A DNA stretch of 64,000 bases from an uncultured Gammaproteobacteria bacterium (GCA_964448725.1 CAYVAJ010000002.1:66587-130586); one strand, 5' to 3'; shown: positions 12,489 through 30,300, counted from the first letter of the stretch. Program-made: numbers and translations. The notes: a model not told the origin generated them from the sequence alone.

Positions 12489-12613
12489 CCTGTAATAAAC
12501 TGTTTTATTTGCATCTTTTGTAAGAAAATGCCTGAGAACATCTCGATTATTGTCTATAATGGTTCTCCAGAAAGTAAGTGAATTTTACATAATAATTTAG
12601 TACCTATAGTATA

Positions 12614-12642
12614 TTGACAGAATTAAAATTTCTGGGTATACT
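12614..12642 (+). promoter_or_regulatory. near-consensus sigma70 promoter (TTGACA-17-TATACT), here called P3
   Basis: TTGACA 12614-12619; 17-nt spacer; TATACT 12637-12642. Confidence 0.55.
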
Positions 12643-12646
12643 GAGA

Positions 12647-12703
12647 AGCAACCATATTAAGAACTGGCGAAAGTCAACTTCTTGAGACCGGTTGCTTTTT
12701 TTG
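12647..12703 (+). terminator. stem (AGCAACC/GGTTGCT) plus U7 tract; closes a roughly 55-nt transcript from P3 (candidate sRNA or attenuator)
   Basis: inverted repeat 12647-12653/12690-12696 followed by TTTTTTT at 12696-12703; internal sub-hairpins. Confidence 0.45.
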
Positions 12704-13162
12704 TACCTAAAAATCAGTCTTTTTAGACAGTTCTTTAACAAGATGTTTTATTCAGAAATTATTTTTAAGTAAAGACTGTGAAGAGAGGGCTGATTTTCTT
12801 CAGTGTTCCCTTCGCAGTCTTTGCTTACCGGCTGTGCCGGATGACGGAGGCAAAGTGGAATTGAGAGGAACAATCTTCTATTCGTAACCTTGGGACGTCA
12901 TCCCATAACAACCATTCGATTTCATTGAAAGGTACGGTCATGTTGCTCCCCGACTTTCTCCCCGACGATGTTTACGTAGACCTCATCATTGTGATGAGGT
13001 ACAACGAGATTCTTAAGGAGAAATTTCGGATGGCTGCACGCCGTGCAGTCAATAGAAAATATGAAAGTTTCGCATAGCTGACGTTTCGCTTTTCGTGAAA
13101 GGAGGCGCCTATACGCCTTTCTGTTCTTCAGTGGGGACATCGATTCATTGGAAGGGATCATC

Positions 13163-13468
13163 ATGGACACTGAAAAAAATAGTGCTTACTCCTCCTACAT
13201 GAGAAAGGAGATGGCGTGGTGGTACGAAAAGCTGTCCTCGCTTGAAGAGGAAGTTTTTCATGCACTGCTGCGCGTCTTGCAGACACCCTGCCGGGTGTTC
13301 TCAGAATGGGAAGAGGAAGCTCTTGCCCGTGAGGGGATCTGTGGACCATCTGGGCCTTGCGGATGCGGGACATACACCCGCAGAATGTTTTACCACTCGG
13401 TAGATGCCCTTCGGGCAGTCCTGCCGAGCTTCCACCGCAACAACTTCACAATCAGGTACGCCGCCTGA
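13163..13468 (+). CDS. hypothetical small protein (101 aa) in the GC-rich island
   Basis: RBS GGAAGGG 6 nt upstream of ATG 13163; Cys/Gly-rich segment EGICGPSGPCGCGTYTRR; overlapping antisense ORFs make coding status uncertain. Confidence 0.3.
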   Translation: MDTEKNSAYSSYMRKEMAWWYEKLSSLEEEVFHALLRVLQTPCRVFSEWEEEALAREGICGPSGPCGCGTYTRRMFYHSVDALRAVLPSFHRNNFTIRYAA

Positions 13469-13610
13469 TACACAACTGAATAAAATATTTAACAGCCAAT
13501 GGCTGTACATCGTGCAATAGCACGAAAATGAGCACGGGGTTATCAGGTGACAAGGTATGCTTTGCTGCATAAATGGCTTGTCTCCCGACGACTTTTACTG
13601 CTCATTATTG

Positions 13611-13641
13611 CCGGGCGGGGACACACTACTTCCCCGCTCGG
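13611..13641 (+). repeat. 11-bp-stem hairpin, copy 1 (CCGGGCGGGGA-N9-TCCCCGCTCGG)
   Basis: near-perfect inverted repeat; a second copy lies at 14292-14318. Confidence 0.7.
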
Positions 13642-13688
13642 ATACGCTCATTTCCTACAGTAGATCATTCTCATTTTTTTATTCATTA

Positions 13689-13717
13689 TTGACTCTCTTT
13701 TTGCAAGCAATTATACT
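13689..13717 (+). promoter_or_regulatory. near-consensus sigma70 promoter P1 (TTGACT-17-TATACT)
   Basis: TTGACT 13689-13694; 17-nt spacer; TATACT 13712-13717; lies within a repeat shared with 14360-14388. Confidence 0.55.
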
Positions 13718-13918
13718 GGTGAACAACCATGTAATTGGTTAAAAGCACCTTAAAGTTGAAGTGGTATTATTTCCATAAAATCCTTTAATTATATTCAGAA
13801 TTGCTCATGAGAGGAGAGTGTATAACTCTTTTGTGGTGAGCAATTCTGTTCGTTTAGAGAAAGGAGTTTATATTCGCGGTTTCTGTAGCGGTAGTGGGAT
13901 TACGAAAGGATCTCGATA

Positions 13919-14203
13919 ATGCAGGAGTCTGTTGTTGCAGACGAAGAGACTCAGGTGGGCTTAGTACTTGTCGTTCCTGCTCTGGTGTACGGACATGGTC
14001 GGCATGTAGAGTCAGTTGATGGCTTTGCCCGCCACAAAGACTGTCGTATTGTTCCTATTCCGACAGATCCGAAGAACGTGATCGTTCACTTGGGTCCTTC
14101 TTGGAGGTGTAAAACCTCTGATGGGATTACTTATATCTCTAACAACGATGGGCTCGTGTGCTACTACTGTGGGGAGTCACCTCGCGCCATCTTCTTTCTG
14201 TAG
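13919..14203 (+). CDS. hypothetical small protein (94 aa)
   Basis: AAAGGA 8 nt upstream of ATG; downstream of P1 after a roughly 200-nt hairpin-rich leader. Confidence 0.3.
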   Translation: MQESVVADEETQVGLVLVVPALVYGHGRHVESVDGFARHKDCRIVPIPTDPKNVIVHLGPSWRCKTSDGITYISNNDGLVCYYCGESPRAIFFL

Positions 14204-14291
14204 CACAAGATGAGCACCGGGTAGTCTTGGGAAGAGTAGTGCGCTGAAAGCACAATATCTCGTCTCCTGATAACTTGTACGCTCATCATAC

Positions 14292-14318
14292 CCGAGCGGG
14301 GACTCACTCCCCGCTCGG
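14292..14318 (+). repeat. 11-bp-stem hairpin, copy 2 (CCGAGCGGGGA-CTCAC-TCCCCGCTCGG)
   Basis: perfect 11-bp inverted repeat with the same 3' arm as copy 1. Confidence 0.7.
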
Positions 14319-14359
14319 TATACACATTTCAATATATTTTATAACTGCTTGCTGCGTTA

Positions 14360-14388
14360 TTGACTCTCACATATATTGTCTTTATACT
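14360..14388 (+). promoter_or_regulatory. near-consensus sigma70 promoter P2 (TTGACT-17-TATACT)
   Basis: TTGACT 14360-14365; 17-nt spacer; TATACT 14383-14388; flanking TTATTGACTCTC identical to P1. Confidence 0.55.
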
Positions 14389-14557
14389 TGTCCTCAATTG
14401 GGTCAGAATTTTAGCGTAATAAAGATTGCTTGGTTCTGATTTTATTTTAATTTGTACATTAACAGCTATTTGGAAATGTAATATTTCACAGAATCGCCGT
14501 GAGAGCAGAGTAGTAATACTCTTTTCTTCCGGCGGTTTTGTAAAGAAAGGGGGTACT

Positions 14558-14875
14558 GTGTATCGCTTTGGCATTATTGTCATGATCATGTGTCTTGTGA
14601 TTGCACCACTCATTGTGGCGCATGATGCTGTTGTCGTACTAGCTGTGTTGCTAAGCATGAACCTTCTCTGGCTTGCAGGATTTTTTCAGTCTGCAAAGCG
14701 CACTGCTTCTCGTGCACACCTTGAACAGATATACCAAACATTGGGTGTGCTTACCGGTCCTTGGTATGCAACCAAGTATACTTACGTCCAGATCAAGAGT
14801 CAGAATCATGAGGCAACAAAACCTTTGAGAAAGGAGTATGCCGTATGGCAGTCCAGAAGGTTTAGAACGGTGTAA
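14558..14875 (+). CDS. small membrane protein (about 105 aa, GTG start)
   Basis: RBS AAGGGGG 4-5 nt upstream of in-frame GTG 14558; two hydrophobic helices (FGIIVMIMCLVIAPLIV / AVVVLAVLLSMNLLWLAGFF); the track ORF starts further upstream at 14426. Confidence 0.4.
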   Translation: MYRFGIIVMIMCLVIAPLIVAHDAVVVLAVLLSMNLLWLAGFFQSAKRTASRAHLEQIYQTLGVLTGPWYATKYTYVQIKSQNHEATKPLRKEYAVWQSRRFRTV

Positions 14876-15397
14876 GCCGTTTTGTAGCTTTACTCGAATT
14901 ATTGAAGGGATAACTCATGACAAATCGGAGTAAGGGTGGATATCCAGAAAAGTCTTCTGTTCCGAATGCGCCTCGCAAACTTGTGATCGCAATTCGCGAA
15001 TACCGGAATCGAAGACAGAAGATCAATACTAACCGTAAGGATATGCGTTCAAAGAAGAATCCACTCCTTACCTAGTTCCAGATAGACACTGCGTTGGAGG
15101 ACATGGTAATCACTATGACAGCTGTACAATCGAAATCAATCGCTGAGGTTGATACGCGATCTGCAGTTTTCCTCCAACGCAGATCACATTTTTGATTTCA
15201 ACCTCTTATTTAGGTATAATTCTAGAGCCTTAAGGCGGTTTATGGTTAGTGGATTATGGTCATTAGGCAGTAAATATCTCTTTATTAATAATTCGTAAAC
15301 CATGAATCATTGACGGCCCCATCGTTTCCGATGATGGTATCATTCGGAATCCCGATGGAAACTACCATCGGGGCTAGAGGCTATATATAATACGTAT

Positions 15398-15652
15398 ATG
15401 TACTGTATGTACATTTTACAGAGAGAGGTTGATAATTCCTTTTATATAGGAAGCACGGACAATATTGATAAGAGGATTGATAAGCATAATAAAGGGTATT
15501 CAAGGTACACGAAGAGTAAAAGACCTTGGAAATTAGTGTATAACGAAATTTATAATACTCTTTCAGAGGCAAGAAAACGCGAATATTATTTAAAGTCACT
15601 TAAGAGCAGAACTGCAATAGAAAAGTTAATTAAAATTGGCCCCATCGTCTAG
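15398..15652 (+). CDS. GIY-YIG nuclease-domain protein (YhbQ/UPF0213-like)
   Basis: YILQREVDNSFYIGSTDNIDKRIDKHNKG ... YYLKSL matches the single-domain GIY-YIG family; 3' end overlaps the start of tRNA-Glu by 15 nt. Confidence 0.7.
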   Translation: MYCMYILQREVDNSFYIGSTDNIDKRIDKHNKGYSRYTKSKRPWKLVYNEIYNTLSEARKREYYLKSLKSRTAIEKLIKIGPIV

Positions 15653-15710
15653 AGGCCTAGGACATCAGGTTCTCATCCTGAAAACCGGGATTCGAATTCC
15701 CGTGGGGTCA
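15638..15710 (+). tRNA. tRNA-Glu (anticodon CUC), no encoded CCA
   Basis: hand-folded: acceptor GGCCCCA/TGGGGTC; D-stem GTCT/GGAC; anticodon stem TCAGG/CCTGA with loop TTCTCAT; T-stem CGGGA/TCCCG with loop TTCGAAT; discriminator A. Confidence 0.8.
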
Positions 15711-17160
15711 CTAAAGTTGTTTTATTGCCTGCAAAATCACCGATTAGATTGAAAGGAAGCCCTAAAGTAGCGGTTCCAAATCCTTCGTTGCTAACAGGCA
15801 TGCCACTTGGAAATAACAATGACTGGAACCTTTGTTTGTTCTCCAAATTAGACTCAAACCACAGTGATGCTACATTATCAAAGAGTGTTTCTACTAAAGA
15901 TATTAAGTGGTCTATATTTGTCTCACTCTCTCTGTAGTCTCCACGTTCAATTTCTTTTACAGTAATATTATCGTTTAATTGTTTAACCTGTGATTTATAA
16001 TCCTCATCTGAAACAATACCGTCAAGGTTTTTCTTAAGCAGTTTATCTTTCATATTTTTAAAGTGCATGATTTCTAAATCTATATTTCTAAGAGCTGTCT
16101 CTGCTTCAAGATGTTTCCTCTTCCATACATCACGTACTATTAATTGAAACAGCTTTGAGAGCTCCTGATTTGGCTGTATTGTTTTTATATACTCATAAAA
16201 TAAATTATCTAACTGCTCTTGTCTTACCCTGACAGCTCCGCATATACAATGATAGTAAGAGTATTTTAGACGTCTTCCTTTTGATTTGCTTCCTGTTAGC
16301 CTCTTCCCACAATCTGAACACGTTAGCACGCTTTTAAGTGGAAAGGTGGGATTTTTACTAAAGTGTGGTATAGCTGCTGTAACCGACTTTCCCAAACGTA
16401 TATTGTTTACTGTGTAGAATAATTCTTTACTAACTAATGGCTCGTGGGCTCCTACATGCTCTTCTCCCCACGCTTCAACTACTCCCATGTACAACTTGTT
16501 TGAAAAAATCTTTATCATTAGTTGTGGGGTTATACGTTTATTCTTCTCAGTTCTCAATCCCATCCTATTAAGTTTCTTGCTAATAGAAATGACTGAGTAT
16601 CCACCTTTGGCGTAAGTTTCAAATGCAGTCTTAATATAGGAAGCTCTAGTGTTATCAATAATTAACCCTGCAGGTGAATTTTTATAACCAATAGGAGCTT
16701 TCCAAGGCCAGTGTCCTTGTCGTGCCTTTTCTTTCATACCTTCCTTTGTCCTATCTGAACGAACATCATTGTCAAACTGTGCGATAGAAGAAAAAATGTT
16801 CTCCATTAACTTTCCCGCTGGAGTATCATCAATTTGTTCTGAAACAGACCGGAGTTTTACTCCCACTTTTAGTAATGCTGCTCTTACTGCGCTATGGTCT
16901 GCGGTATTTCTAGAGAACCTATCTAATTTATGGACTAATAAAATGTCTATCTTACCTCTATTTTCGTGACAAAATTTTAGAAGTTTTAGGAGCTGAGTTC
17001 TGTCTGCGGTTTTTGCTGACTCTCCTTGTTCTTGGAATACTTGAACAATATTCCAACCCATTCTCTCTGCGTATTCTTTACACAATTTTTCCTGGTACGT
17101 TAAGCTGTAACCCTCTATTTGTTCTTTTGTGCTGACTCTTGTGTAAAGAATGACATTCAT
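15673..17160 (-). CDS. large serine recombinase (resolvase/invertase catalytic domain, recombinase domain and zinc-ribbon)
   Basis: N-terminus MNVILYTRVSTKEQ with catalytic Ser; ...HKLDRFSRN...; C-terminal CxxC...C zinc-ribbon region; last 12 codons are antisense to the tRNA-Glu T-arm. Confidence 0.85.
   Translation of the reverse strand: MNVILYTRVSTKEQIEGYSLTYQEKLCKEYAERMGWNIVQVFQEQGESAKTADRTQLLKLLKFCHENRGKIDILLVHKLDRFSRNTADHSAVRAALLKVGVKLRSVSEQIDDTPAGKLMENIFSSIAQFDNDVRSDRTKEGMKEKARQGHWPWKAPIGYKNSPAGLIIDNTRASYIKTAFETYAKGGYSVISISKKLNRMGLRTEKNKRITPQLMIKIFSNKLYMGVVEAWGEEHVGAHEPLVSKELFYTVNNIRLGKSVTAAIPHFSKNPTFPLKSVLTCSDCGKRLTGSKSKGRRLKYSYYHCICGAVRVRQEQLDNLFYEYIKTIQPNQELSKLFQLIVRDVWKRKHLEAETALRNIDLEIMHFKNMKDKLLKKNLDGIVSDEDYKSQVKQLNDNITVKEIERGDYRESETNIDHLISLVETLFDNVASLWFESNLENKQRFQSLLFPSGMPVSNEGFGTATLGLPFNLIGDFAGNKTTLVTPREFESRFSG
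15695..15711 (+). repeat. attL-like 17-bp direct repeat (tRNA-Glu 3' end)
   Basis: exact copy of 21704-21720. Confidence 0.7.
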
Positions 17161-17169
17161 AGTATTTAC

Positions 17170-17379
17170 TTAATTCCCATTTTCGCTTTTTAGCTTCAAG
17201 GAGTCAATAACCCCACGTTGTTTTTTGGAACCGTAAGTGTCAATGTATATTTCTGCTAACACCTCCATGCTGTTAATCAGAGAGAGAAGCTCATCATCGG
17301 TAAACTTACTGGCACTCTTTCCTAATATTCTTTTAGCGGTTTTTAAGGTTACTGTTTTCATCCTGCCTATATTAGGCAT
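17170..17379 (-). CDS. hypothetical small protein (element cargo)
   Basis: ORF only. Confidence 0.35.
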   Translation of the reverse strand: MPNIGRMKTVTLKTAKRILGKSASKFTDDELLSLINSMEVLAEIYIDTYGSKKQRGVIDSLKLKSENGN

Positions 17380-17419
17380 ATAAGCTGGATATGGAGATTG
17401 TAATATTTGGGTCTAAAAA

Positions 17420-17851
17420 TTACTCAGTAAATGCCAGTTCTTTATCTTTCTCTTCCATAATTTTCAGTGCATCAGCCAGAATATCAGGCGATACATTGAA
17501 GGTGTTATTCTGTGTGGCTTTTACTAGAGGAGAAGCATCTGTGATACCATGAGAAGCCTTTAAGAGAAATGCTGCAAACCTCGCGTTATATTTGTTGCTA
17601 AGTCCCCCGGAGATGAGCAAGTGTCTTTGAGCGTCACGAAGCATCTCCATCGTCTGCATAAAATCAGAATGCTCCTTCTCCCACTCGTATAATACCCTTG
17701 TTCCTACCCCTAAATAAGACGCTAAATGCTCAATAGTGGGAAATTCATCATTTTGAAGACACTTCTTTGTGTAATGCATTACACGTTTCGGAGTCTCTTT
17801 TGTGTACTTTGTAGGTCTTCCTCTTTTGAGTGTAAATATCTGTTGCTCCAT
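17420..17851 (-). CDS. phage terminase small subunit-like HTH protein
   Basis: GRPTKYTKE...IEHLASYLGVGTRVLYEWEKEHSDF...N..F..FLLK pattern typical of TerS proteins of Firmicutes phages and PICIs. Confidence 0.6.
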   Translation of the reverse strand: MEQQIFTLKRGRPTKYTKETPKRVMHYTKKCLQNDEFPTIEHLASYLGVGTRVLYEWEKEHSDFMQTMEMLRDAQRHLLISGGLSNKYNARFAAFLLKASHGITDASPLVKATQNNTFNVSPDILADALKIMEEKDKELAFTE

Positions 17852-17902
17852 ACTAATATTATCTCACTAATGAAGCTACTTTGTAATGTGATTTCAGTCT
17901 AA

Positions 17903-18574
17903 ATGTACTATAATCCCATCAATGTGTCATATAAAGTAATTCTGGAAAATTCTATAAAAAGTATCTTTGATGACTTTGAGAAAATGGGAGGTCATATAAA
18001 AAACCCATCAATCATTGATAGATACTTAATTGCTGCAACTTATAAAGCTGCTAGACTAACTAACACTCTCATTTTGCTATGTGAGAACGGAAAATGTGAG
18101 GATGCATTAATAATTCTGCGGTCTTTAATAGAACATACTGTAAATATGCGGTGGATTACTACCAGAGATACTAAAACAAGGATAAAAATGTATGTTAATG
18201 ATATTAGCGATAAAGGATTTGGTGCTCAATGGACCGATGTAAATTTATATGACAGAATGAAACAAATTAGTTTTGAAGATAAGGACTATTTTGATTTTTG
18301 TGTAAAGCTAACCTACTCCTATGCCCATGTAAACGCATTGTCACTAAGATGGGGAGAAGTATATGATGACCCCAGGTTAAGAGACGATGATTGGCCTCCT
18401 GATGCAATCTATCAAGTTGCTGCTCAGATGACTGGACATGTAATGCTTGCTTTGAATAAAAACTACAAAGAATATTTTAAGGGTTATGATAGGCTATGGG
18501 AGAGCATTCCGGTTGATAAGGATATCAGAAAAAAATATGAGGAAGTTAAGGAGAAGTTGAAAAATGAACGATAA
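17903..18574 (+). CDS. hypothetical protein (helical; possible defence-associated partner of the downstream HNH gene)
   Basis: ORF overlaps the next gene by 11 nt (operon); no catalytic motif recognised. Confidence 0.4.
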   Translation: MYYNPINVSYKVILENSIKSIFDDFEKMGGHIKNPSIIDRYLIAATYKAARLTNTLILLCENGKCEDALIILRSLIEHTVNMRWITTRDTKTRIKMYVNDISDKGFGAQWTDVNLYDRMKQISFEDKDYFDFCVKLTYSYAHVNALSLRWGEVYDDPRLRDDDWPPDAIYQVAAQMTGHVMLALNKNYKEYFKGYDRLWESIPVDKDIRKKYEEVKEKLKNER

Positions 18575-19319
18575 ACAGAGTTGCGTATTTTGTCATAGTA
18601 CCTCTAATAAGATGTCACGTGAACATGTGTTTCCAAACTGGTTGTGCAATCTATACCCAGAAGAAACAATGATAATAAACCAATTTATTGGTAAATCTCA
18701 AAATATTTGGCCTTCAAAAATATTTCAACATAAAGCAAAAGTAGTATGTGAACCCTGTAATAATGGCTGGATGGCTGACCTGGAAGGTGAAGTTAAGCCA
18801 ATCCTTAGTAAAATGATGCGATTATCACCCTATGTTTTGAATGAAAGAGCCCAGGCTACTTTATCATTTTGGGCTCAAAAAACGCTGTTAATGCTCAATC
18901 AAGCAGTTCCTGGAGACCTCAAGATAACTTCTGACCTGTATGATGATTTATATACCAAGAAATCAGCATCCTCTAAGGTGCTTGTACAAATAGGCTGGAG
19001 AATGCTCAATAGAGGTACAAAAGATGAACCAATCGCAAGTTTTGAATTAAAACAGATACCTTCTGTAGAAGTGCCCCGAGAACTATTAGGGGCTCTTGAA
19101 AAGCAAAAAGACTCAGGAGGCTTTATATGGAAAGCTGTCATTGCGATTGGACCAGTAGTCTTTGAAATGGCTGGTCATAATATGCAGATAACTCTTACAG
19201 TAGGCACGAACAGCAAGGTCTTCATTCCAATAAGGCCTTATAGGCAAGATATAACTTGGCCGCTGGAATGGCCGATAGAAGCTGAGGGTGGGTTACCAGA
19301 GATAAAGAGACGGCAATAA
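18564..19319 (+). CDS. HNH-endonuclease-domain protein
   Basis: N-terminal CVFCHSTSNKMSREHVFPNWL ... CEPCNNGWM (C-x2-C ... EH-x2-P ... C-x2-C-N), an HNH/His-Me finger. Confidence 0.6.
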   Translation: MNDKQSCVFCHSTSNKMSREHVFPNWLCNLYPEETMIINQFIGKSQNIWPSKIFQHKAKVVCEPCNNGWMADLEGEVKPILSKMMRLSPYVLNERAQATLSFWAQKTLLMLNQAVPGDLKITSDLYDDLYTKKSASSKVLVQIGWRMLNRGTKDEPIASFELKQIPSVEVPRELLGALEKQKDSGGFIWKAVIAIGPVVFEMAGHNMQITLTVGTNSKVFIPIRPYRQDITWPLEWPIEAEGGLPEIKRRQ

Positions 19320-19404
19320 ACAATATCTATATCCTTATAAGACCATAGCTTTAGTCCACGCTGGATGCCATCAGGGGAGGTATATGGTTTATGAGTGTGT
19401 ACTC

Positions 19405-20364
19405 CTATGCCATACCCAAGTACTGCATTATTGCTGATGCAATCATTGAGCCTGCTGTATTATTTGCTACAGATATACTTCCTTTACCTATCATAATCAT
19501 GACTCTTGATATCCAACTCGTTGTAGCAGGTCCTGGTTGTTCCTCGGATTTCTCGTCCTTAGACAAAGCGTCTTCTAACTCAGTTATCAGTGCGTCTGTT
19601 ACACCCAATTCCTTAAGAGATTTTTTTAATCCATCAAAGTCCCCTGGGCGTACAACTATATTGTTCTGGGTTGTAGCACCAAAATTACCCACAGAAACGT
19701 TACCCCCGTATATTATGTTATGAACATTTTGAGTAACTTTTTTGTCAGTAGGTGGAGATACTTCAACCTCTTCTTTCCCTTTACTACCCTTAATATCTAA
19801 TTCGTCTTCTATGCTGAGAACAAATTCAAGTACCCGTGTTCTTATTGTATCCAGTATTCCTCCCAACCTAGCTTTGCTAATCACCCTCCAAGCAGAAGCG
19901 AGTACCATGCCTCCACTAAATATCTCTTTGGTTTGATAAAATGCAATAACATCTGCGGGCCAATGTGACGACAGTGTGTCTGTCTTATCTCCTTGTGAGG
20001 ATAATTCTTCCAGTTCTGCAACTGGCTCAGTCATATAGTTTGTGAATAACATTTTCCGATGCTTCTTATCTATAACTGACTGTGGTACTTGTATATTACG
20101 ATATCCACTTCCGAATGGACCTGAGAGATGGCCCATTACCTGTGCTCCAAACTCTCTATAATCAGGTAATCCATCATTAGATGTATACCCATTAAGCTCA
20201 GATTGAGACCATTTCACTAGTTCATCATTTTGCAGCAACTTTCCGAGTCTCATGCAGAGACGCAACACTTCACTCAGAGGAATGTCATGACCAGTTGAGC
20301 CATCTTTAATTTTTTTTATGAGTTCACTGACTTCACTTAAATCTACAGTTTTATTCTCTGCCAT
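19405..20364 (-). CDS. AbiTii-like abortive-infection protein
   Basis: N-terminal LSEVLRLCMRLGKLLQNDELVKWSQSELNGY matches the AbiTii N-domain signature (LRK.KVLA..L.N.E...W...ELNGY). Confidence 0.55.
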   Translation of the reverse strand: MAENKTVDLSEVSELIKKIKDGSTGHDIPLSEVLRLCMRLGKLLQNDELVKWSQSELNGYTSNDGLPDYREFGAQVMGHLSGPFGSGYRNIQVPQSVIDKKHRKMLFTNYMTEPVAELEELSSQGDKTDTLSSHWPADVIAFYQTKEIFSGGMVLASAWRVISKARLGGILDTIRTRVLEFVLSIEDELDIKGSKGKEEVEVSPPTDKKVTQNVHNIIYGGNVSVGNFGATTQNNIVVRPGDFDGLKKSLKELGVTDALITELEDALSKDEKSEEQPGPATTSWISRVMIMIGKGSISVANNTAGSMIASAIMQYLGMA

Positions 20365-20417
20365 TTGTCAGCTATTATAGCACTCCACCGGTGTTTAATG
20401 ATTACACAAAAATGAGG

Positions 20418-21386
20418 TCAATTATAGGCACTGCACTGTTGCTGGTACGCTTCATCGTTCTTAACTTCTTGTTCCATCTTATTTCTAGTTCCTGTCCATA
20501 CACATTCATTGTATTGGGTCTCCGTAAGTGAATTGGCTTCCTTTAATTGCGTACAAGCAACTATGGAGTCTTGAGTTTTTTCCTCTACTGAAAGGGTAAT
20601 CCCCAGTGCGGGGTTCAAGTCTACATCCTCCTTTAATCTAGCAAAAATTGACCTTCTTTCCTCGTCATGCAGCTGATTTAAGAAAATTGACTGTGCCGTA
20701 AAAGCATCAGCCTCCTGTCCAAAACATTCCAATTTTTCTTTAGTCTCACGTTGATATATCTCCTGTCCTACATGTGTTAGCTCATGTATTAAAATAGTAG
20801 CAATTGAGAGGTCATCGTAAGTCTTGTACTGGGGGTGCAGTATAATTTTCAATGCATCTGTTGGGGAATCCGTCATAAATCCTCCTTCTAAGTCCATTTC
20901 AGATGCCTCTTCTGAATACTGAATATCAAGACAGTTTCTGTAATCAAAAGCCCTTCCATAGTACGAGCCGGGGTTATTCTCTATATCCAACCGCTGTGAT
21001 ATCAAATCCAAGGCTCTATTAATTTCTGGCTCTAAAGCGTGTGGAGTACCTCTCAAACAGCGTGCTACTGGTGCTGTTCTCGCACTGTATTCCATATACC
21101 CAACTAACCCTGTCCCTAACAGCCAAAAAATGATTAGAAAGACTGAAACCATCCTAAATCGCTTCTTCCAAAATGTTATTACTGAAAACAAGGCTGTAAA
21201 GACTGCCCATAAGATGACAACCCTCCACATGTTTTCTCCACCAATGGCTGCCCGTTGCTCATAGAGTAACCCGTCCGCGGTTCTCATGAACGGGAACATC
21301 GCTACAAAAAATATCACAGTTACAATTCCCAGAAGAAATAGGCGGGAAAATATCCTTTTAACTGATAGGTTATATCTCTTACTCAT
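20418..21386 (-). CDS. membrane-anchored HExxH zincin-like metallopeptidase-domain protein (DUF4157-like)
   Basis: three N-terminal TM helices; ILIHELTHVGQE motif resembling the DUF4157 HELxHVxQ signature. Confidence 0.45.
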   Translation of the reverse strand: MSKRYNLSVKRIFSRLFLLGIVTVIFFVAMFPFMRTADGLLYEQRAAIGGENMWRVVILWAVFTALFSVITFWKKRFRMVSVFLIIFWLLGTGLVGYMEYSARTAPVARCLRGTPHALEPEINRALDLISQRLDIENNPGSYYGRAFDYRNCLDIQYSEEASEMDLEGGFMTDSPTDALKIILHPQYKTYDDLSIATILIHELTHVGQEIYQRETKEKLECFGQEADAFTAQSIFLNQLHDEERRSIFARLKEDVDLNPALGITLSVEEKTQDSIVACTQLKEANSLTETQYNECVWTGTRNKMEQEVKNDEAYQQQCSAYN

Positions 21387-21703
21387 CTGTTTTCAGTATA
21401 TCTTAAAGAAAGAAAAAAAGTAGCAAAAAAAGAAAGAAAATAATTTTGGTTCATAAATCTACTGGTAGTTATATTGATAGGCTGGGGTGTGGCTGGGATA
21501 TACTACCTCTCTCCACTGGTCTAATGAGGCACGAACTTGGTTCCAATGCAAAAACATTTGGGTCACATAAAAAATATCTCGCAACAGTGCGAGATTTTTT
21601 TGTGGGATTTCACCGTAGGAAATTGAATATTTGTTCGTGCCGCTACGAAGTAGCTAATACCCTTGGGGTACGACACTTCGAAGAAGTTAGTCCTCTTGTA
21701 GGA

Positions 21704-21720
21704 AATTCCCGTGGGGTCAC
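21704..21720 (+). repeat. attR-like 17-bp direct repeat
   Basis: exact copy of 15695-15711. Confidence 0.7.
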
Positions 21721-21808: not shown

Positions 21809-22393
21809 ATGACTGACCAAAGTCAGGATCAATTATTGCCTGTCCGCCGAAGTCTTCCTTCCAAAAGAAAAGGTATTACGTGGGAAGGAAGGGTAGCTGG
21901 GCAGAAAGTCTATCTTCGGACAGGGGAGTTTGAAGATGGAACGATCGGTGAGATCTTCATTGACCTCCACAAGGAGGGGATGGCGATGCGGTCCATTATG
22001 AACTGCTTTGCGATAGCGGTAAGTAAAGGGCTTCAGTTCGGTGTTCCTCTTGAGGAGTTCGTGGAAACATTCACCTTCACCCGGTTCGAGCCACAAGGAA
22101 TTGTAGAAGGCCATCCCAACATCAAGATGGCAACATCTATAGTGGATTACGTGTTCCGTGTATTGGGTCATCACTATCTGGGGTGGGAAGACCTCGCTCT
22201 AACATCTGGCACGTCTGAGGTTACATCATCTCCAGTTGGGGAAAGTTACGCTGAACAGAGTATGTTTGCGCATCTTGAAAGGATGATGGGAGAAGCACCC
22301 TTCTGCAGTGTTTGCGGACATATTACAGCACGCAATGGAGCACTTTTCAAGTGTCTGAATTGTGGAAATAGTATGGAGGAGCCAAAAGACTAG
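21809..22393 (+). pseudogene. nrdJ: C-terminal fragment (NrdJb-like, 194 aa) of adenosylcobalamin-dependent class II ribonucleotide reductase
   Basis: [39 protein letters not shown]...TRFEPQG...[16 protein letters not shown] and a C-terminal Cys4 ribbon CSVCGH...CLNCG; no N-terminal 500-plus aa upstream, where the sequence is attR. Confidence 0.6.
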
Positions 22394-27383: not shown

Positions 27384-30300
27384 ATGGATCCAGATTCTTT
27401 AACCAGAAGTAAAAAAACTTCATCCTTTTTAAAACTTTACGGTAAGATTGCAGCATACAGCTTGGCTGTTGTGTTTGGAATCATAACTGTAGTGTATATT
27501 ATTGATTGGAACTCAGAGTCGGAAGATCCAACAACTCCTACAAAAACAAATCCAATGCCCGAAGTTTTGGCTGAAGCAGACAGTTTATTTGAGTCAGGGG
27601 GTGTAGTATTTGGTATTCCAACAAATTTTACTGCAGCAGCAACATTTGGTTCAGACATTACCGTTGCTCAAGATACTAATCTTGAAGGGGATTTGTATTA
27701 CAGAGGAGATTTAGTTGATCTTTCAATAATTGTCGATGGATTGGAAATAGACTCAGACTCGCTTTCAACCATCCTGGATGAAGGTGTTGGAATTAGTATC
27801 ACAGGTGATGAAGTACTGCAGATAAATAATACTGGTGTACTGTCATTTAATGGCCTTACCGGTGATGTTGTCTATGAGATTGAAGAACATAATATGTTTA
27901 AAAATATTCTTGTGCCTGGTAATGCCACAATTGTAGCAGATTCAACGAATGATTCGTTAACATTTATTCCTGGTGACGGAATTTCTCTTGCGACAGATGC
28001 GACTGGTAAAAGTATCACAATAACAAGCTCAAGCGCCTCTAGTGGTGTTAATACAATTACTGGCATACCAAATCAAGTTATTGTTACAAGACTTGGTCAG
28101 GATGTTATACTCTCACTCCCTCAAGATTTTCATACAGCTGCGAGTGTTACATTTTCTGAAATGACTTTGGCAGATCCAATTACTTCTGCTAATGTACTTT
28201 CATTTACTTCAAGCGGGCGTATCTCCACATTAAATAATGCTGATTTACTCCTCGGGAGTAATAGTACTGGAAATATACAATTCATATCAAAGGGAGCCAC
28301 ATCATTGTTGCTTAATGGATCAGACTTGGTTGCAAGCGGTTCGCTTACTGGAGTCACAGATTTTAGTGCCTCAGGTGAGATAGAACTTACATCACTTGCT
28401 AATGGAATTGTGCAAGCGCAAGGATATACATTAACCAGTGGACCTATCAATCTTGCAAGCAGTAACCACGTATCAGGAATTTTATCCGCAGAAAATGGCG
28501 GAACTGGTACTGATAAGACACCATTGGATGGACAAATATTAATTGGTAGCGGTCACACAAAAAGTTATGAACCGAGACATTTAAGTGTGGGTACTGGTAT
28601 TTCTGTAACAAGAAACCCCTATTCGTTAACTCTTACAAATAGCGGAGTAACAAAAATTGCTGGAGGAGTGAGGCATATTTTGGTGAATGGATCATATTCA
28701 CCAACAGGACTGACAGGTGATGTTACATTAACATTACCCCAGATACTTGATACTGTAGCCTCACCAACATTTGCAGCGTTGCGGCTCACCTCACATGAAG
28801 ATATTCTTACCTTTACTGCAGAATCAGGAGATTTAGCCTATCTCCAGATAGGTGAGCTTACACAGAATAGGAATTACACTCTCCCAGATGAATCAGGTAC
28901 TTTTTGTCTTACTTCAGGTAACTGTGTTGGAATTGGTGGAGGGCTTGTCGGAACCGGTACTGCCAACTATATTCCTAAATACTCAAATGCAAATACACTT
29001 ACGCCATCACTCATTTATGATGATGGATCAAGTGTGGGAGTTGGAACAACGCTCCCTTTGCTGGGAGTAGCACTTGATGTGAATGGTTCTCTTCGCATTG
29101 GAGTTGCAAGAGGCACATATGACATTTTGAACACTGTACCTGCACAGGGAGATCCATTGGCTTCATTATTCTGGGGAGATAGAACACTCTGTGATTCTAG
29201 TGGGAGTTGTCAGGGGACAGCAGGTGCAGGAGTTGAGAGCATGGGGACAGATGGATATATTGCTCTTTTTTCTAACAGCGGGAATACTCTCGCGAACTCT
29301 CTTATCTATGATTCAGGATCTGCTGTTGGGATTGGGACAACTACACTCACAGGATTTATTACGATTTCAGGAAGTAGTGAAAATTCAGCACTCTCCATCA
29401 ATCAGACGAACTCAGTAGGGGATATTATCAGTGCGTCAATTGAAGGGGAAGAGAAGATGATTCTAACCAGTGTCGGTGATCTGGATTTGGTGAGTGGGGT
29501 ATATAAAAATAAAGGAAATTCAGGTGCAACAGTAGGAGGATATTCTTGTGTAACAACAAGTGGTGGTATTGTTACCGGAAGCGGAGCATGTCCTGTAGAT
29601 CCATCTGCTACGTTGTGGGAATCACAAGGAAGTCTTACCTTTGCAAAAAATACGAATCATAATTTTGCACTTGGTGGTACAACCGTAAATAATGCAAAGT
29701 TCGCAGTATTAAATATAGATTCTGGTGATCCGACTATTTGGTTGAGAAGTTCTCCTACCCAAACTTTGTCAATTACCTCAAGCGGTACTTTTAAAACAAT
29801 TAACGATGCAAATATTACACTCGAATCAGGTGAAGATATTGTACTCAAACCAGGCAGTGGCGATATTGTTGTAGAAGGTAAATTAGTAACTCCAGAAAGC
29901 TCAGATTTGATAGTGGAACCTGAAGGGTCATTTCATGTTAGACCTCACGGACAGCAGGTATTGAGTGTTTCAACAGATGGAGTGGGAGTTAATACTACAA
30001 TTTCGCGTGGGGCATTTACTATAAAAGAACTGTCAAGTTTCCCAACACAAGGAGAAGGGGAGGGAACTCCTGATAATAATTTGATTTTAGATCCTGCAGA
30101 CAGTAATTTCTCATCTAATACTGGACATTGGACCTTATGGTCTGGATGGTCGATTAGTGGAGGAAGATTAACATATAGCGGAGGTATTGCTACTGCATCT
30201 TTAGAAAACCAATATATAGGCAATTATATTGAAGCCGGTAAAACCTATACAGTGAAATTTGATTTATTGGAAACAACTTCTCCAGGGGCGATTGGTATCC

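What the first reader, a model, noticed from the sequence alone, without database searches (positions are those of the whole stretch)
15638..21720. PICI-like integrative island at tRNA-Glu carrying a small terminase and abortive-infection-type cargo
A 17-bp exact direct repeat (15695-15711 within the tRNA 3' end; 21704-21720) brackets 6.0 kb. The island encodes a large serine recombinase next to the tRNA, a TerS-like HTH protein but no large terminase, capsid or tail genes, an operon of an unknown protein plus an HNH protein, an AbiTii-like protein and an HExxH membrane protein. An integrase plus terS plus interference genes with no structural genes is the hallmark of phage satellites (PICI-like elements). 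Two aspects are unusual. The integrase is a serine rather than tyrosine recombinase, yet the element sits in a tRNA with a long direct repeat. And the last 12 codons of the recombinase are antisense to the tRNA T-arm.
Basis: partly seen in the sequence, partly recalled or inferred. Interest (0 to 1): 0.7.

Follow-up and report, generated by a model that had tools for sequence, protein, structure and literature searches.

The report
Serine-recombinase defence island at tRNA-Glu
A 5.9-kb mobile island carrying likely anti-phage genes and an orphan phage packaging gene sits at a tRNA gene of a Patescibacteria genome; its recombinase has its recombination site inside its own coding sequence, so integration rewrites the enzyme's tail.

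Summary
tRNA-Glu(CTC), the exact 17-bp repeat, the large serine recombinase (LSR) reading antisense into the tRNA, a TerS-like gene with no TerL, and AbiTii and HExxH cargo are all present.

The 17-bp repeat is not the island's att site. Comparison with five independent junctions places the distal end at 21566. The shared core is only GGGTCAC (15705-15711 and 21560-21566), and 21567-21720 is an older fossil kept in a strain that carries a different insert.

Joining the two ends as in a circle extends the LSR ORF from 495 to 518 aa. The added tail is conserved at protein level in relatives, so attP lies inside the LSR gene. This explains the 12 antisense-tRNA codons. 108 of 147 representative homologues end in tRNA-antisense peptides, and a 12-kb relative occurs as an apparently circular contig with the native tail.

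The island belongs to a Patescibacteria-wide family: LSR plus a small conserved ORF, with or without TerS-like, plus variable defence cargo (retron VI, type III R-M, TIR).

It is not a PICI. No regulator, primase-replicase or capsid-morphogenesis gene was found. A satellite-like lifestyle for the TerS-carrying subset is plausible but unproven.

The parts
15638..15711 (+). tRNA-Glu(CTC), intact. It is the integration target and forms the left half of attB.
   Evidence: ARAGORN; Rfam tRNA 55.7 bits.
15705..15711 (.). attL core GGGTCAC, the last 7 nt of the tRNA gene.
   Evidence: This is the only sequence shared between the tRNA end and the conserved distal end. In L137 a mismatch at the corresponding position places the crossover within TCAC.
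15673..17160 (-). Large serine recombinase, integrated-state ORF of 495 aa. After ..LVT it ends in PREFESRFSG, encoded antisense to the tRNA.
   Evidence: Pfam Resolvase 8e-38, Recombinase 2e-13, Zn_ribbon_recom 5e-5; phrog_95 integrase 7e-92. The N-terminus reads YTRVSTKEQ, as in serine recombinases.
17170..17379 (-). p69, a small conserved ORF directly upstream of the LSR. It is a core gene of the family and a candidate directionality factor or regulator.
   Evidence: tblastn finds homologues (37-49% identity) in the same position in all related islands, with or without TerS. No Pfam, PHROG or PADLOC hit. The model has three helices (pLDDT 80) and gives no significant fold match.
17420..17851 (-). 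Orphan small-terminase homologue (GP3_package).
   Evidence: Pfam 5e-17 covering 1-102/105 and PHROG terminase families. Viral homologues (30-40% identity) are followed by TerL in 8 of 10 loci scanned, with the other two weak or intein-only. 111 homologues at 55-87% identity occur in Patescibacteria contigs.
17903..18574 (+). DUF5677 protein (cargo), in an operon with the next gene.
   Evidence: Pfam PF18928 4e-11. It overlaps the next ORF by 11 nt.
18564..19319 (+). 251-aa Cys-rich protein (cargo). The HNH assignment is weak.
   Evidence: HNH_5 E=6e-4, below the gathering score, residues 7-29 only. phrog_38451, unknown function, 7e-9.
19405..20364 (-). AbiTii-domain protein (abortive-infection-type cargo).
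   Evidence: Pfam PF18864 4e-38; PADLOC AbiTii 1e-39.
20418..21386 (-). Membrane protein with an HELTH motif (putative metallopeptidase, cargo).
   Evidence: Weak DUF6782 match, E=0.002; sequence.
21459..21566 (-). Detached 3' end of the LSR ORF: VT plus 33 codons (QMFLHWNQVRASLDQWREVVYPSHTPAYQYNYQ) plus stop. It is in frame with the LSR only in the excised circle, and it also forms the P arm of attP.
   Evidence: Translation. The same tail is conserved in L142 (two copies), L144, L137, L147, P0139 and P0150, with synonymous and conservative codon changes and no stops in this frame.
21560..21566 (.). attR core GGGTCAC, the true distal boundary.
   Evidence: Similarity to the distal ends of related islands stops exactly here. 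Homology with strain L004 starts exactly here. Reconstructed attP has its best dyad centre on the T of this core, 13 of 22 positions.
21576..21595 (+). Terminator-like hairpin, probably the tRNA's native terminator. It lies in the right half of the reconstructed attB.
   Evidence: Terminator scan. Conserved in L004.
21567..21720 (.). Resident fossil segment ending in the 17-bp tRNA-3'-end copy (21704-21720). It is the remnant of an older insertion and is not part of this island.
   Evidence: Present in L004 downstream of a different element end that itself carries ATTCCCGTGGGGTCAC.

Best explanation
Window 15712-21566 is a 5.86-kb integrative element of a Patescibacteria-wide family. The host is Woesebacteria-like. 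The element is moved by a large serine recombinase that recombines at the very 3' edge of tRNA genes, here tRNA-Glu(CTC).

The crossover lies in the last bases of the tRNA (GGGTCAC, probably within TCAC). The tRNA therefore stays intact, and only 7 bp are duplicated.

attP sits inside the recombinase's own ORF, 33 codons before its stop. The free circular element therefore encodes a 518-aa enzyme with a conserved WNQ..SL..W C-terminal tail. After integration that tail is left 5.9 kb away at the distal end, and the resident gene makes a 495-aa enzyme ending in 10 residues read antisense from the tRNA.

The core of the family is the LSR plus a small upstream ORF (p69), which I infer to be a directionality factor or regulator. 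This island additionally carries a highly conserved orphan small-terminase gene in the same transcription unit. It also carries four cargo genes that look like anti-phage functions: a DUF5677/Cys-rich pair, AbiTii, and a membrane HExxH protein.

Shown: the boundaries, the split ORF, membership of the family, the variable cargo, and a circular relative.

Inferred: (a) the tail swap changes recombinase activity, stability or directionality between the free and integrated states; (b) the TerS-like protein redirects a helper phage's terminase to the excised island, giving a satellite-like transfer route. I put about 40% on (b).

The 17-bp repeat is a fossil of an earlier insertion at this hot spot.
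For: Boundaries:
- The distal-end motif (21483-21566) recurs at the far end of the islands whose LSRs are 82% and 69% identical (L142, two copies; L144-146) and in L120. Similarity always ends after GGGTCAC, with unrelated flanks beyond it.
- Strain L004 is homologous only from GGGTCAC rightwards.
- Reconstructed attP has its dyad centre in the core.
- No relative shows a long tRNA repeat.

Split ORF:
- The circular junction gives 518 aa. The tails of window, L142a, L142b, L144, L137, L147 and P0150 share VTQM..[HN]WNQ..SL..W, with synonymous and conservative changes and no stops in that frame.
- 38 of 49 close homologues and 108 of 147 representatives end in tRNA-antisense peptides. 4 and 19, respectively, have native tails.
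- The LSR ends overlap tRNA-Glu(TTC), Lys and Gln in other loci.

Circular form:
- L147 is 12,166 bp, has a 29-bp terminal overlap and no tRNA, and its LSR carries the native tail.

Mobility:
- L104 (Lon 91% identical) has an empty tRNA-Glu.
- Other islands occupy the same tRNA (L128/L130 at 67% LSR identity, L123/L124, L142-146).

TerS:
- Pfam and PHROG hits.
- Viral homologues sit next to TerL.
- Isolate phages annotate the homologue as terminase.
- TerS is 57-73% identical between islands whose LSRs are only 24-54% identical.
- It is always on the same strand as, and upstream of, p69-LSR.

Cargo:
- AbiTii.
- Retron type VI in L142; type III R-M in L141 and a TIR protein in L012.

No structural or replication Pfam hits appear in any flank.
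Against: No read-level or contig evidence for excision of this particular island was available; the circular contig is a 54%-identity relative.

The empty site is in a related species with different downstream genes, not in an isogenic strain.

The function of the tail is untested, and the swap might be neutral.

No helper phage, pac/cos site or replication gene was identified.

The closest LSR relatives have no terS. They carry an Xre-type HTH gene in the equivalent slot (L142 8413-8625, L147 2259-2468). That arrangement fits a regulatory role for the TerS-like protein as well as a packaging role.

The TerS model is only moderately confident, and its matches to solved small terminases are not significant.

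Only AbiTii among the window's four cargo genes matches a catalogued defence family.
Confidence: 0.75

Rival explanations
1. The island is a PICI-family phage satellite. On this reading a helper phage induces excision, the island replicates, and its TerS redirects packaging.
For: It has an integrase plus an orphan terS, no structural genes, and interference-type cargo. The terS family is a genuine TerS in viruses.
Against: Three of the five PICI core components are absent: no AlpA/MerR/Stl-type regulator, no primase-replicase and no capsid-morphogenesis gene. The integrase is a serine recombinase. The size is 5.9 kb against a PICI median of 9.5 kb. terS lies in one unit with int rather than at the opposite end. 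The closest LSR relatives lack terS.
Confidence: 0.08
2. The island is a non-satellite integrative defence island. The TerS-like protein has been domesticated as a DNA-binding regulator or accessory factor of the p69-LSR module. Transfer between cells occurs by transformation or generalised transduction.
For: TerS-less sister islands carry an Xre-type HTH gene in the same slot upstream of p63-LSR. The N-terminal half of TerS is an HTH domain. No replication or helper-interaction genes are present. The same LSR clade moves islands without terS.
Against: The match covers almost the whole TerS domain, not just the HTH. TerS is far more conserved than the LSRs and cargo beside it (57-73% versus 24-54%). 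That is unexpected for a regulator of fast-diverging island DNA and expected for a protein that docks on a conserved partner.
Confidence: 0.35
3. The island is a decayed prophage remnant that kept the integrase, terS and a few moron genes.
For: terS and a serine integrase are phage-type genes.
Against: The same compact architecture, with intact ORFs, recurs in many genomes with different cargo and no structural genes within 10 kb. The detached LSR tail is under protein-level constraint. A 12-kb relative without recognisable structural genes is circular.
Confidence: 0.05
4. The 17-bp direct repeats (15695-15711 and 21704-21720) are the functional att sites, and the unit is 6.0 kb.
For: The repeat is exact and not expected by chance.
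Against: Family-wide conservation ends at 21566. L004 retains 21567-21720 behind a different element. Relatives have no long repeat. By eye, the arm upstream of the 21704 copy shows no dyad match to the LSR-proximal arm; no computation was run on that junction.
Confidence: 0.03

Closest known systems
PICIs / SaPIs (phage-inducible chromosomal islands)
   Same: A small integrated island with an integrase, its own terS, no terL or structural genes, and anti-phage cargo. tRNA-adjacent hot spots are also used by some PICI-like elements such as tycheposons.
   Different: It has no master repressor or AlpA, no primase-replicase or ori, and no capsid-remodelling gene. The integrase is a serine recombinase. 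The island is about half the usual size. terS is co-oriented with and adjacent to int. No helper is known.
PLE of Vibrio cholerae
   Same: A phage satellite that uses a large serine recombinase for integration and excision (own knowledge; PLE papers surfaced).
   Different: PLE is about 18 kb, integrates in superintegron repeats rather than tRNAs, and has its own replication and many conserved core genes. No homology to it beyond the LSR fold was seen here.
SSV-type ('suicidal') archaeal tyrosine integrases
   Same: attP lies inside the integrase ORF, so integration splits the gene (PMC8371274).
   Different: Those are tyrosine recombinases, stated to be exclusively archaeal, and the split destroys the enzyme. 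Here a bacterial serine recombinase loses only its last 33 residues and gains 10 tRNA-encoded ones. All recognised domains stay intact.
Integration-dependent immunity of mycobacteriophages (BPs, Brujita, Charlie)
   Same: attP lies within an ORF, so integration replaces a C-terminal tail and changes the protein's behaviour (PMC3694055). In distant LSR relatives 6 of 19 native tails end in -AA, like ssrA-type tags, against 2 of 108 tRNA-type tails.
   Different: There the affected gene is the repressor and the integrase is a tyrosine recombinase. In the window's own clade the tail does not end in -AA, and no functional data exist.
Tycheposons (Prochlorococcus)
   Same: tRNA-targeting integrative elements with modular cargo. 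A subset is PICI-like with terS or a capsid gene, and a minority use LSRs (27 of 937).
   Different: The host phylum differs. Tycheposons mostly use tyrosine recombinases and many have replication genes. Their PICI-like members are reported to lack cargo.
Characterised phage large serine integrases (phiC31, Bxb1, A118, TP901-1)
   Same: The domain architecture, a short crossover core and a dyad-symmetric attP are shared. A separate small RDF is expected.
   Different: Those target protein-coding genes or intergenic sites. Use of a tRNA gene by a serine integrase was described as not previously reported, at 14 of 297 predicted cases (PMC7192596). attP inside the integrase ORF was not found in the searchable literature.

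Membership tests
PICI (core components per de Sousa et al. 2023, PMC10085698) | Integrase at one end | tested here: met
   The LSR at 15673-17160 abuts attL. It is of serine type, not the usual tyrosine type.
PICI (core components per de Sousa et al. 2023, PMC10085698) | Regulation module (alpA, merR or stl homologue) | tested here: not met
   No such Pfam, PHROG or NCBIfam hit in any island ORF. p69 has no hit and its model is a three-helix bundle, not a winged HTH.
PICI (core components per de Sousa et al. 2023, PMC10085698) | Primase-replicase module | tested here: not met
   No primase, helicase or replication-initiator domain in the seven ORFs.
PICI (core components per de Sousa et al. 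2023, PMC10085698) | Capsid morphogenesis / remodelling gene | tested here: not met
   No head-related hit apart from terS.
PICI (core components per de Sousa et al. 2023, PMC10085698) | Small terminase without large terminase | tested here: met
   GP3_package 5e-17 and PHROG terminase hits, with no TerL in the island or window flanks. Viral homologues sit next to TerL.
PICI (core components per de Sousa et al. 2023, PMC10085698) | Helper-phage-induced excision, replication and packaging | not testable with these tools
   Needs experiments or particle-fraction sequencing.
Large serine recombinase integrative element | Resolvase catalytic domain + Recombinase domain + zinc ribbon/coiled coil | tested here: met
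   Pfam PF00239, PF07508 and PF13408; N-terminal YTRVSTKEQ motif.
Large serine recombinase integrative element | Short crossover core shared by attL and attR, and a dyad-symmetric attP | tested here: met
   The 7-bp GGGTCAC core was defined from five independent junctions. The best attP dyad centre lies in the core, 13 of 22 positions. The exact dinucleotide is not determined.
Large serine recombinase integrative element | Presence/absence polymorphism and a circular form | tested here: inconclusive
   An empty tRNA-Glu is seen in related species L104, a different insert in strain L004, and a circular contig for a 54%-identity relative, L147. Nothing is available for this exact island.
Large serine recombinase integrative element | Cognate recombination directionality factor | tested here: inconclusive
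   p69 is conserved next to every LSR but has no recognisable family or fold.
SSV-type self-splitting integrases | attP inside the integrase ORF | tested here: met
   The ORF continues across the reconstructed junction for 33 conserved codons.
SSV-type self-splitting integrases | Tyrosine recombinase, archaeal, with the gene broken into inactive halves | tested here: not met
   This is a serine recombinase in a bacterium. Only the C-terminal 33 of 518 residues are detached.
AbiTii abortive-infection proteins | AbiTii N-terminal domain | tested here: met
   PF18864 4e-38 and PADLOC PDLC02334 1e-39, on residues 14-195 of 319. Phenotype not testable.
PLE | PLE core gene set, ~18 kb, Vibrio cholerae | not tested
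   No PLE protein profiles were searched. The only PLE-like feature seen is the LSR class of the integrase. The island is 5.9 kb in a Patescibacteria host.

The most novel reading that the evidence does not exclude
A large clade of bacterial large serine recombinases targets the 3' edge of tRNA genes. It comprises most of the 150 best cluster representatives, is abundant in Patescibacteria, and also occurs in other phyla. These enzymes carry attP inside their own coding sequence. Integration therefore swaps a conserved C-terminal helix for a tRNA-antisense peptide; in distant members that helix ends in an ssrA-like -AA. On this reading the swap is a built-in sensor of the integrated versus free state. 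It would set recombinase stability or directionality, as a serine-recombinase, bacterial counterpart of SSV-type integrases and of integration-dependent immunity. The subset of these elements with the highly conserved orphan TerS would be a new family of minimal (5-6 kb), replication-less phage satellites that spread defence genes among CPR bacteria.
Probability: 0.3. Interest if true: 0.8.

Novelty: new variant of a known kind. Interest (0 to 1): 0.65.

Why it matters
Mobile elements of Patescibacteria (CPR) are almost undescribed, and how these tiny-genome episymbionts exchange defence genes is unknown.

This island gives a precise, testable model. It defines a recombinase, attP and attB to the base. 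It is part of a family with dozens of natural variants that target different tRNAs.

Large serine recombinases are prized genome-engineering tools. A clade that recognises conserved tRNA 3' ends with a very short core and tolerates variable right half-sites would be of practical interest.

An attP embedded in the recombinase ORF, with an integration-dependent C-terminal swap, is a regulatory architecture previously described only for archaeal tyrosine integrases and for phage repressors.

If the orphan TerS really hijacks phage packaging, this would be the first satellite family in CPR bacteria and among the smallest known.

Tried and rejected
- I searched for long direct repeats of the tRNA 3' end in ten related loci. 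None were found. This argued against the 17-bp repeat as a family att feature.
- Exact-protein look-up of the LSR in public assemblies returned nothing, although the homology search later showed the source contig (P0112).
- The homology search with p69 found only itself, because of the word-index limit. Its single-sequence model gave no meaningful PDB match.
- The TerS model's fold search put small-terminase structures on top (2ao9; P22 gp3, TM 0.47), but none was significant. The profile search against PDB sequences was also weak.
- I looked for excess synonymous-site conservation inside terS as a sign of an embedded pac site. The result was uninterpretable.
- The genome-contig scan returned only 6 loci because a single peptide pattern was used.
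- I tested whether the ORF-free 12.5-15.4 kb stretch is the missing N-terminal part of nrdJ or a known RNA. There were no Pfam, Rfam or phage-DNA matches.
- A first z-score script timed out.
- I considered a helper prophage elsewhere in the window and rejected it. The 32-38 kb cluster is the ATP synthase operon.


Full report
**1. Observation.**
ARAGORN and Rfam place an intact tRNA-Glu(CTC) at 15638-15711 on the + strand. The 17-mer AATTCCCGTGGGGTCAC occurs exactly twice in the 64 kb, at 15695-15711 and 21704-21720. No match is expected by chance even with 2 mismatches allowed.

- A 495-aa large serine recombinase (LSR) at 15673-17160(-), with Resolvase 8e-38, Recombinase 2e-13, Zn_ribbon_recom 5e-5 and phrog_95 integrase 7e-92.
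- A 69-aa ORF with no hits (p69, 17170-17379).
- A 143-aa GP3_package / small-terminase homologue (17420-17851; Pfam 5e-17 over 1-102 of 105 profile positions; three PHROG terminase families).
- A DUF5677 protein overlapping a 251-aa Cys-rich protein, whose HNH_5 match is below threshold.
- An AbiTii protein (Pfam 4e-38, PADLOC 1e-39).
- A 322-aa membrane protein with an HELTH motif.

The LSR's last 12 sense codons and its stop are antisense to the tRNA (15673-15711).

The flanks are chromosomal. They hold Lon protease, a GIY-YIG protein and a stand-alone TSCPD fragment matching the C-terminal part of B12-dependent RNR, and further on the ATP synthase operon. Proteins in the same 90%-identity cluster as the window's Lon are named Candidatus Woesebacteria.

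**2. The 17-bp repeat is not the island boundary.**
A Logan contig from another study (L004) is 99.5% identical to the window downstream of the island, but the similarity extends leftwards only as far as GGGTCAC at 21560. Upstream of that point L004 has unrelated DNA ending in its own copy of ATTCCCGTGGGGTCAC. The segment 21567-21720, including the 17-bp copy, is therefore resident DNA shared by a strain with a different insert.

I then searched public collections for relatives. The LSRs most similar to the window's are P0113 (82% identical, loci L142/L143) and P0114 (69%, L144-146). Both sit in exactly the same arrangement, with their 3' ends overlapping tRNA-Glu(CTC) by about 40 nt.

At the far end of those islands lies a sequence 77-84% identical to window 21483-21566. 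It is present twice in L142, and L120 holds three further copies, two of them the arms of an apparent inverted duplication.

In the aligned junctions the similarity ends immediately after ...CATTTGGGTCAC, and the following bases are unrelated. In L120 the base after the core begins TTCGGCAGC. In L125 and L131 the near-identical TTCGGCAAGC follows an unoccupied tRNA-Glu directly.

The island is therefore 15712-21566 (5,855 bp), bounded by a 7-bp repeat: GGGTCAC at 15705-15711 and at 21560-21566.

Directly after the distal core comes a terminator-like hairpin (21576-21595), as expected for the tRNA's native downstream sequence.

None of the related loci shows a long repeat of its tRNA 3' end.

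The reconstructed attP reads ...GCAAAAACATTT|GGGTCAC|TAAAGTTGTTTTATTGC... Its best dyad centre is on the T of the core, with 13 of 22 positions complementary. By eye, the arm upstream of the 17-bp copy has no such symmetry with the LSR-proximal arm; I did not compute this.

In L137, an island at tRNA-Lys, attL reads ACGGCTCAC and attR reads ACGGGTCAC. The single mismatch places the crossover within the terminal TCAC.

**3. attP lies inside the recombinase gene.**
Reading the LSR ORF across the reconstructed circular junction does not hit the tRNA-encoded stop. It continues in frame for 33 further codons: VT-QMFLHWNQVRASLDQWREVVYPSHTPAYQYNYQ*. This gives 518 aa instead of 495.

The same operation in relatives gives:
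- QMFENWNQIQASLKQWKQVLQPSLTPTSLLNYH* (L142a)
- QMIQNWNQIRASLEQWKQVLHPSLGPNSFLNYH* (L142b)
- QMFLHWNQIRGSLEQWKSIIQPEATQYPVMTTIGY* (L144)
- RTSENWNQLLASLEAWRQVLNPSFTPSIAYNY* (L137)

The codon differences are largely synonymous or conservative, for example TCA TTA / TCT CTG / TCG CTG for Ser-Leu. This frame has no stops, while the other two frames do in most copies. The distal end is thus constrained as protein, not only as a binding site.

In the integrated state the last 33 residues are detached to the other end of the island and replaced by 10 residues (PREFESRFSG) read from the tRNA's T-arm.

The feature is family-wide:
- Among the 49 closest database homologues (39-100% identity), 38 end in peptides typical of antisense T-loops (GFEP, GVEP, REFES), 4 carry a native WNQ-type tail and 7 are unclassified or truncated.
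- Among 147 full-length representatives of 50%-identity clusters (31-55% identical to the query), 108 end in tRNA-antisense peptides in one of the three frames, 19 have native W-motif tails and 20 are unclassified.
- By coordinates, LSR ends overlap tRNA-Glu(TTC), tRNA-Lys and tRNA-Gln in other loci.

One homologue with a native tail (P0130, 54% identical) lies on a 12,166-bp Logan contig. That contig has a 29-bp terminal direct overlap, no tRNA gene and a p69 homologue upstream of the LSR. It is best read as the circular, excised form of a related element.

**4. The family and its cargo.**
Two genes are constant: the LSR and a 47-83-aa ORF immediately upstream. This ORF corresponds to p69 and is 37-49% identical in tblastn across all islands.

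The TerS-like gene is present in a subset. It has 111 database homologues at 55-87% identity, where named from Roizmanbacteria, Pacebacteria or 'Patescibacteria group'. In every TerS locus where an LSR was detected (8 of the 9 distinct loci examined; none was detected in L008), the TerS gene lies on the same strand as the LSR and 0-6 kb upstream of it.

TerS is much better conserved than the recombinase beside it: 57-73% against 24-54% identity to the window's proteins.

L137 is a second fully delimited TerS island of about 5.4 kb. It holds a Peptidase_S51 protein, a SEC-C protein, a 203-aa protein, TerS, p54 and the LSR, at tRNA-Lys.

The islands with the most similar LSRs (L142, L144, L147) have no TerS. 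They carry an Xre-type HTH gene upstream of the small ORF.

Cargo differs in every island and is often recognisable defence:
- A type VI retron, HTH_VI plus RT_VI at 2e-66 (L142).
- Type III restriction-modification (L141).
- A 1,168-aa TIR protein (L012).
- AbiTii (window).
- SRAP plus a Y-family polymerase (L142, L147).

No TerL, portal, capsid, tail, lysis or replication-initiator families appear in the precomputed Pfam lists for 10-kb flanks of any locus.

L142 has two distal ends in tandem, and the window has the 17-bp fossil. The tRNA is therefore a hot spot where elements accrete.

L104, the closest relative found (Lon 91% identical), has the same tRNA-Glu followed directly by CsoR-like and DUF305 genes, with no island.

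**5. Is the TerS-like protein a terminase subunit?**
In IMG/VR the homologues (30-40% identity) are followed by a large ORF in all 20 loci inspected. Of the 10 scanned against Pfam, 8 give a large-terminase family above its gathering score. One is an intein-interrupted ORF with a weaker terminase match, and one shows only intein domains.

In cultured phages such as Dhillonvirus and Klebsiella phages, the homologue is at the genome start and annotated as terminase.

The AlphaFold model (pLDDT 72) is all-helical. Its best PDB matches are the nonameric phage protein 2ao9 and P22 gp3 (TM 0.47), but none is statistically significant.

The gene therefore descends from genuine terS and is orphaned here. 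Whether it still works in packaging cannot be decided computationally.
- For a packaging role: the match spans the whole domain; conservation is very strong across islands with divergent recombinases; and it is co-oriented with p69-LSR as if it were one 'escape' operon.
- Against: it is dispensable for the LSR clade; an Xre regulator occupies its position in sister islands; no replication gene is present; and no helper is known.

**6. Comparison with known systems.**
PICI membership fails on three of five core components. PLE shares only the use of an LSR.

The literature searched describes tRNA use by serine integrases as previously unreported and rare (14 of 297 predicted; PMC7192596). [quoted passage not shown]

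The nearest logic in bacteria is integration-dependent immunity. There attP sits in the repressor ORF, and integration removes a C-terminal degradation tag (PMC3694055).

In the wider LSR clade, 6 of 19 native tails (plus 3 unclassified tails) end in -AA, against 2 of 108 tRNA-type tails. This hints at an ssrA-like tag on the free-form enzyme. The window's own clade ends in ...NYQ...NYH or ...IGY, so this remains a lead only.

Searches for papers on LSRs with attP in their own gene, or on such elements in Patescibacteria, found nothing relevant.

**7. Verdict.**
The feature is real, and the gene content was read correctly. The att sites were mis-assigned and the PICI label does not hold.

What is there is a member of an apparently undescribed, widespread family of small LSR-driven integrative islands in Patescibacteria. 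They insert at the 3' edge of tRNA genes, split off the recombinase's own C-terminal tail on integration, and ferry defence genes. A subset, including this island, also carries a highly conserved orphan small terminase that may make them minimal phage satellites.

I rate this a new variant of a known kind, with interest 0.65. The boundaries, the split ORF and family membership are well supported. The functional meaning of the tail swap, the role of p69 and the role of TerS are inferences.

Noticed in passing
window 12489-15380: A 2.9-kb stretch between Lon and the GIY-YIG gene has no ORF over 150 aa in any frame. Its GC is 42-46% against 36-38% around it. There are no Rfam, Pfam or phage-DNA matches. 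On the + strand the predicted RNA folding is much stronger than in shuffles: z = -4.6 and -3.0 with dinucleotide shuffles, and -3.4 to -10 across 12500-14500 with mononucleotide shuffles, against about -2.7 to +1.4 (mostly near 0) in flanking genes. It could be a large structured RNA or decayed foreign DNA. Its length equals the missing N-terminal part of nrdJ, but no similarity could be shown.
   Followed up: partly
window 21567-21720; L004 1-252: This is a fossil of an earlier insertion: a 137-bp segment ending in a 17-bp copy of the tRNA 3' end. In strain L004 (SRR23814902) the same segment, with a 35-bp deletion, follows the end of a different element. The minus strand of that element end reads VTPREWFDRLTIYTGLSFNKLRVLLN*, which looks like another kind of detached recombinase tail.
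   Followed up: partly
window 21809-22393: A stand-alone 194-aa ORF matches only the C-terminal TSCPD/zinc-finger part of B12-dependent ribonucleotide reductase (positions 968-1105 of 1222 in PRK07562). No N-terminal part is recognisable in the window.
   Followed up: partly
window 15398-15652: An 84-aa GIY-YIG nuclease-domain ORF has its last 15 nt overlapping the 5' end of tRNA-Glu. The GIY-YIG-then-tRNA-Glu arrangement recurs in L098 and L109.
   Followed up: no
L142 261-343 and 2446-2529: There are two copies of the island distal end in tandem, with two unknown genes between them. This indicates an array of one complete island plus a recombinase-less remnant at the same tRNA-Glu.
   Followed up: partly
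L147 1-12166 (Logan SRR22000240): An apparently circular 12.2-kb relative (29-bp terminal overlap, no tRNA) carries the full-length LSR, SRAP, a Y-family DNA polymerase, a 588-aa reverse-transcriptase-like protein and many unknown ORFs.
   Followed up: partly
P0326, P0330, P0339, P0351, P0356, P0364 and others: The native (non-tRNA) C-terminal tails of distant LSR homologues frequently end in -AA: 6 of 19, against 2 of 108 tRNA-type tails. This is reminiscent of ssrA-like degradation tags.
   Followed up: no
L012 12150-12260: The LSR of this TerS-carrying island ends in ...SPPHFAKATRGAMVLQK and reads into GTGAGCCCGCCCC..., followed by a terminator. ARAGORN calls no tRNA there, so the target may be another small RNA gene or a degraded tRNA.
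   Followed up: no
L120 2800-4900: This metagenome contig contains an inverted duplication with many frameshifts around the island-end motif. It is probably a chimeric or error-rich assembly, and I used it only for the junction sequence.
   Followed up: no
window 27384-32168: A 1,594-aa ORF whose only Pfam signal is a weak K1-lyase C-terminal domain match (E=4e-4) lies just upstream of the ATP synthase operon.
   Followed up: no
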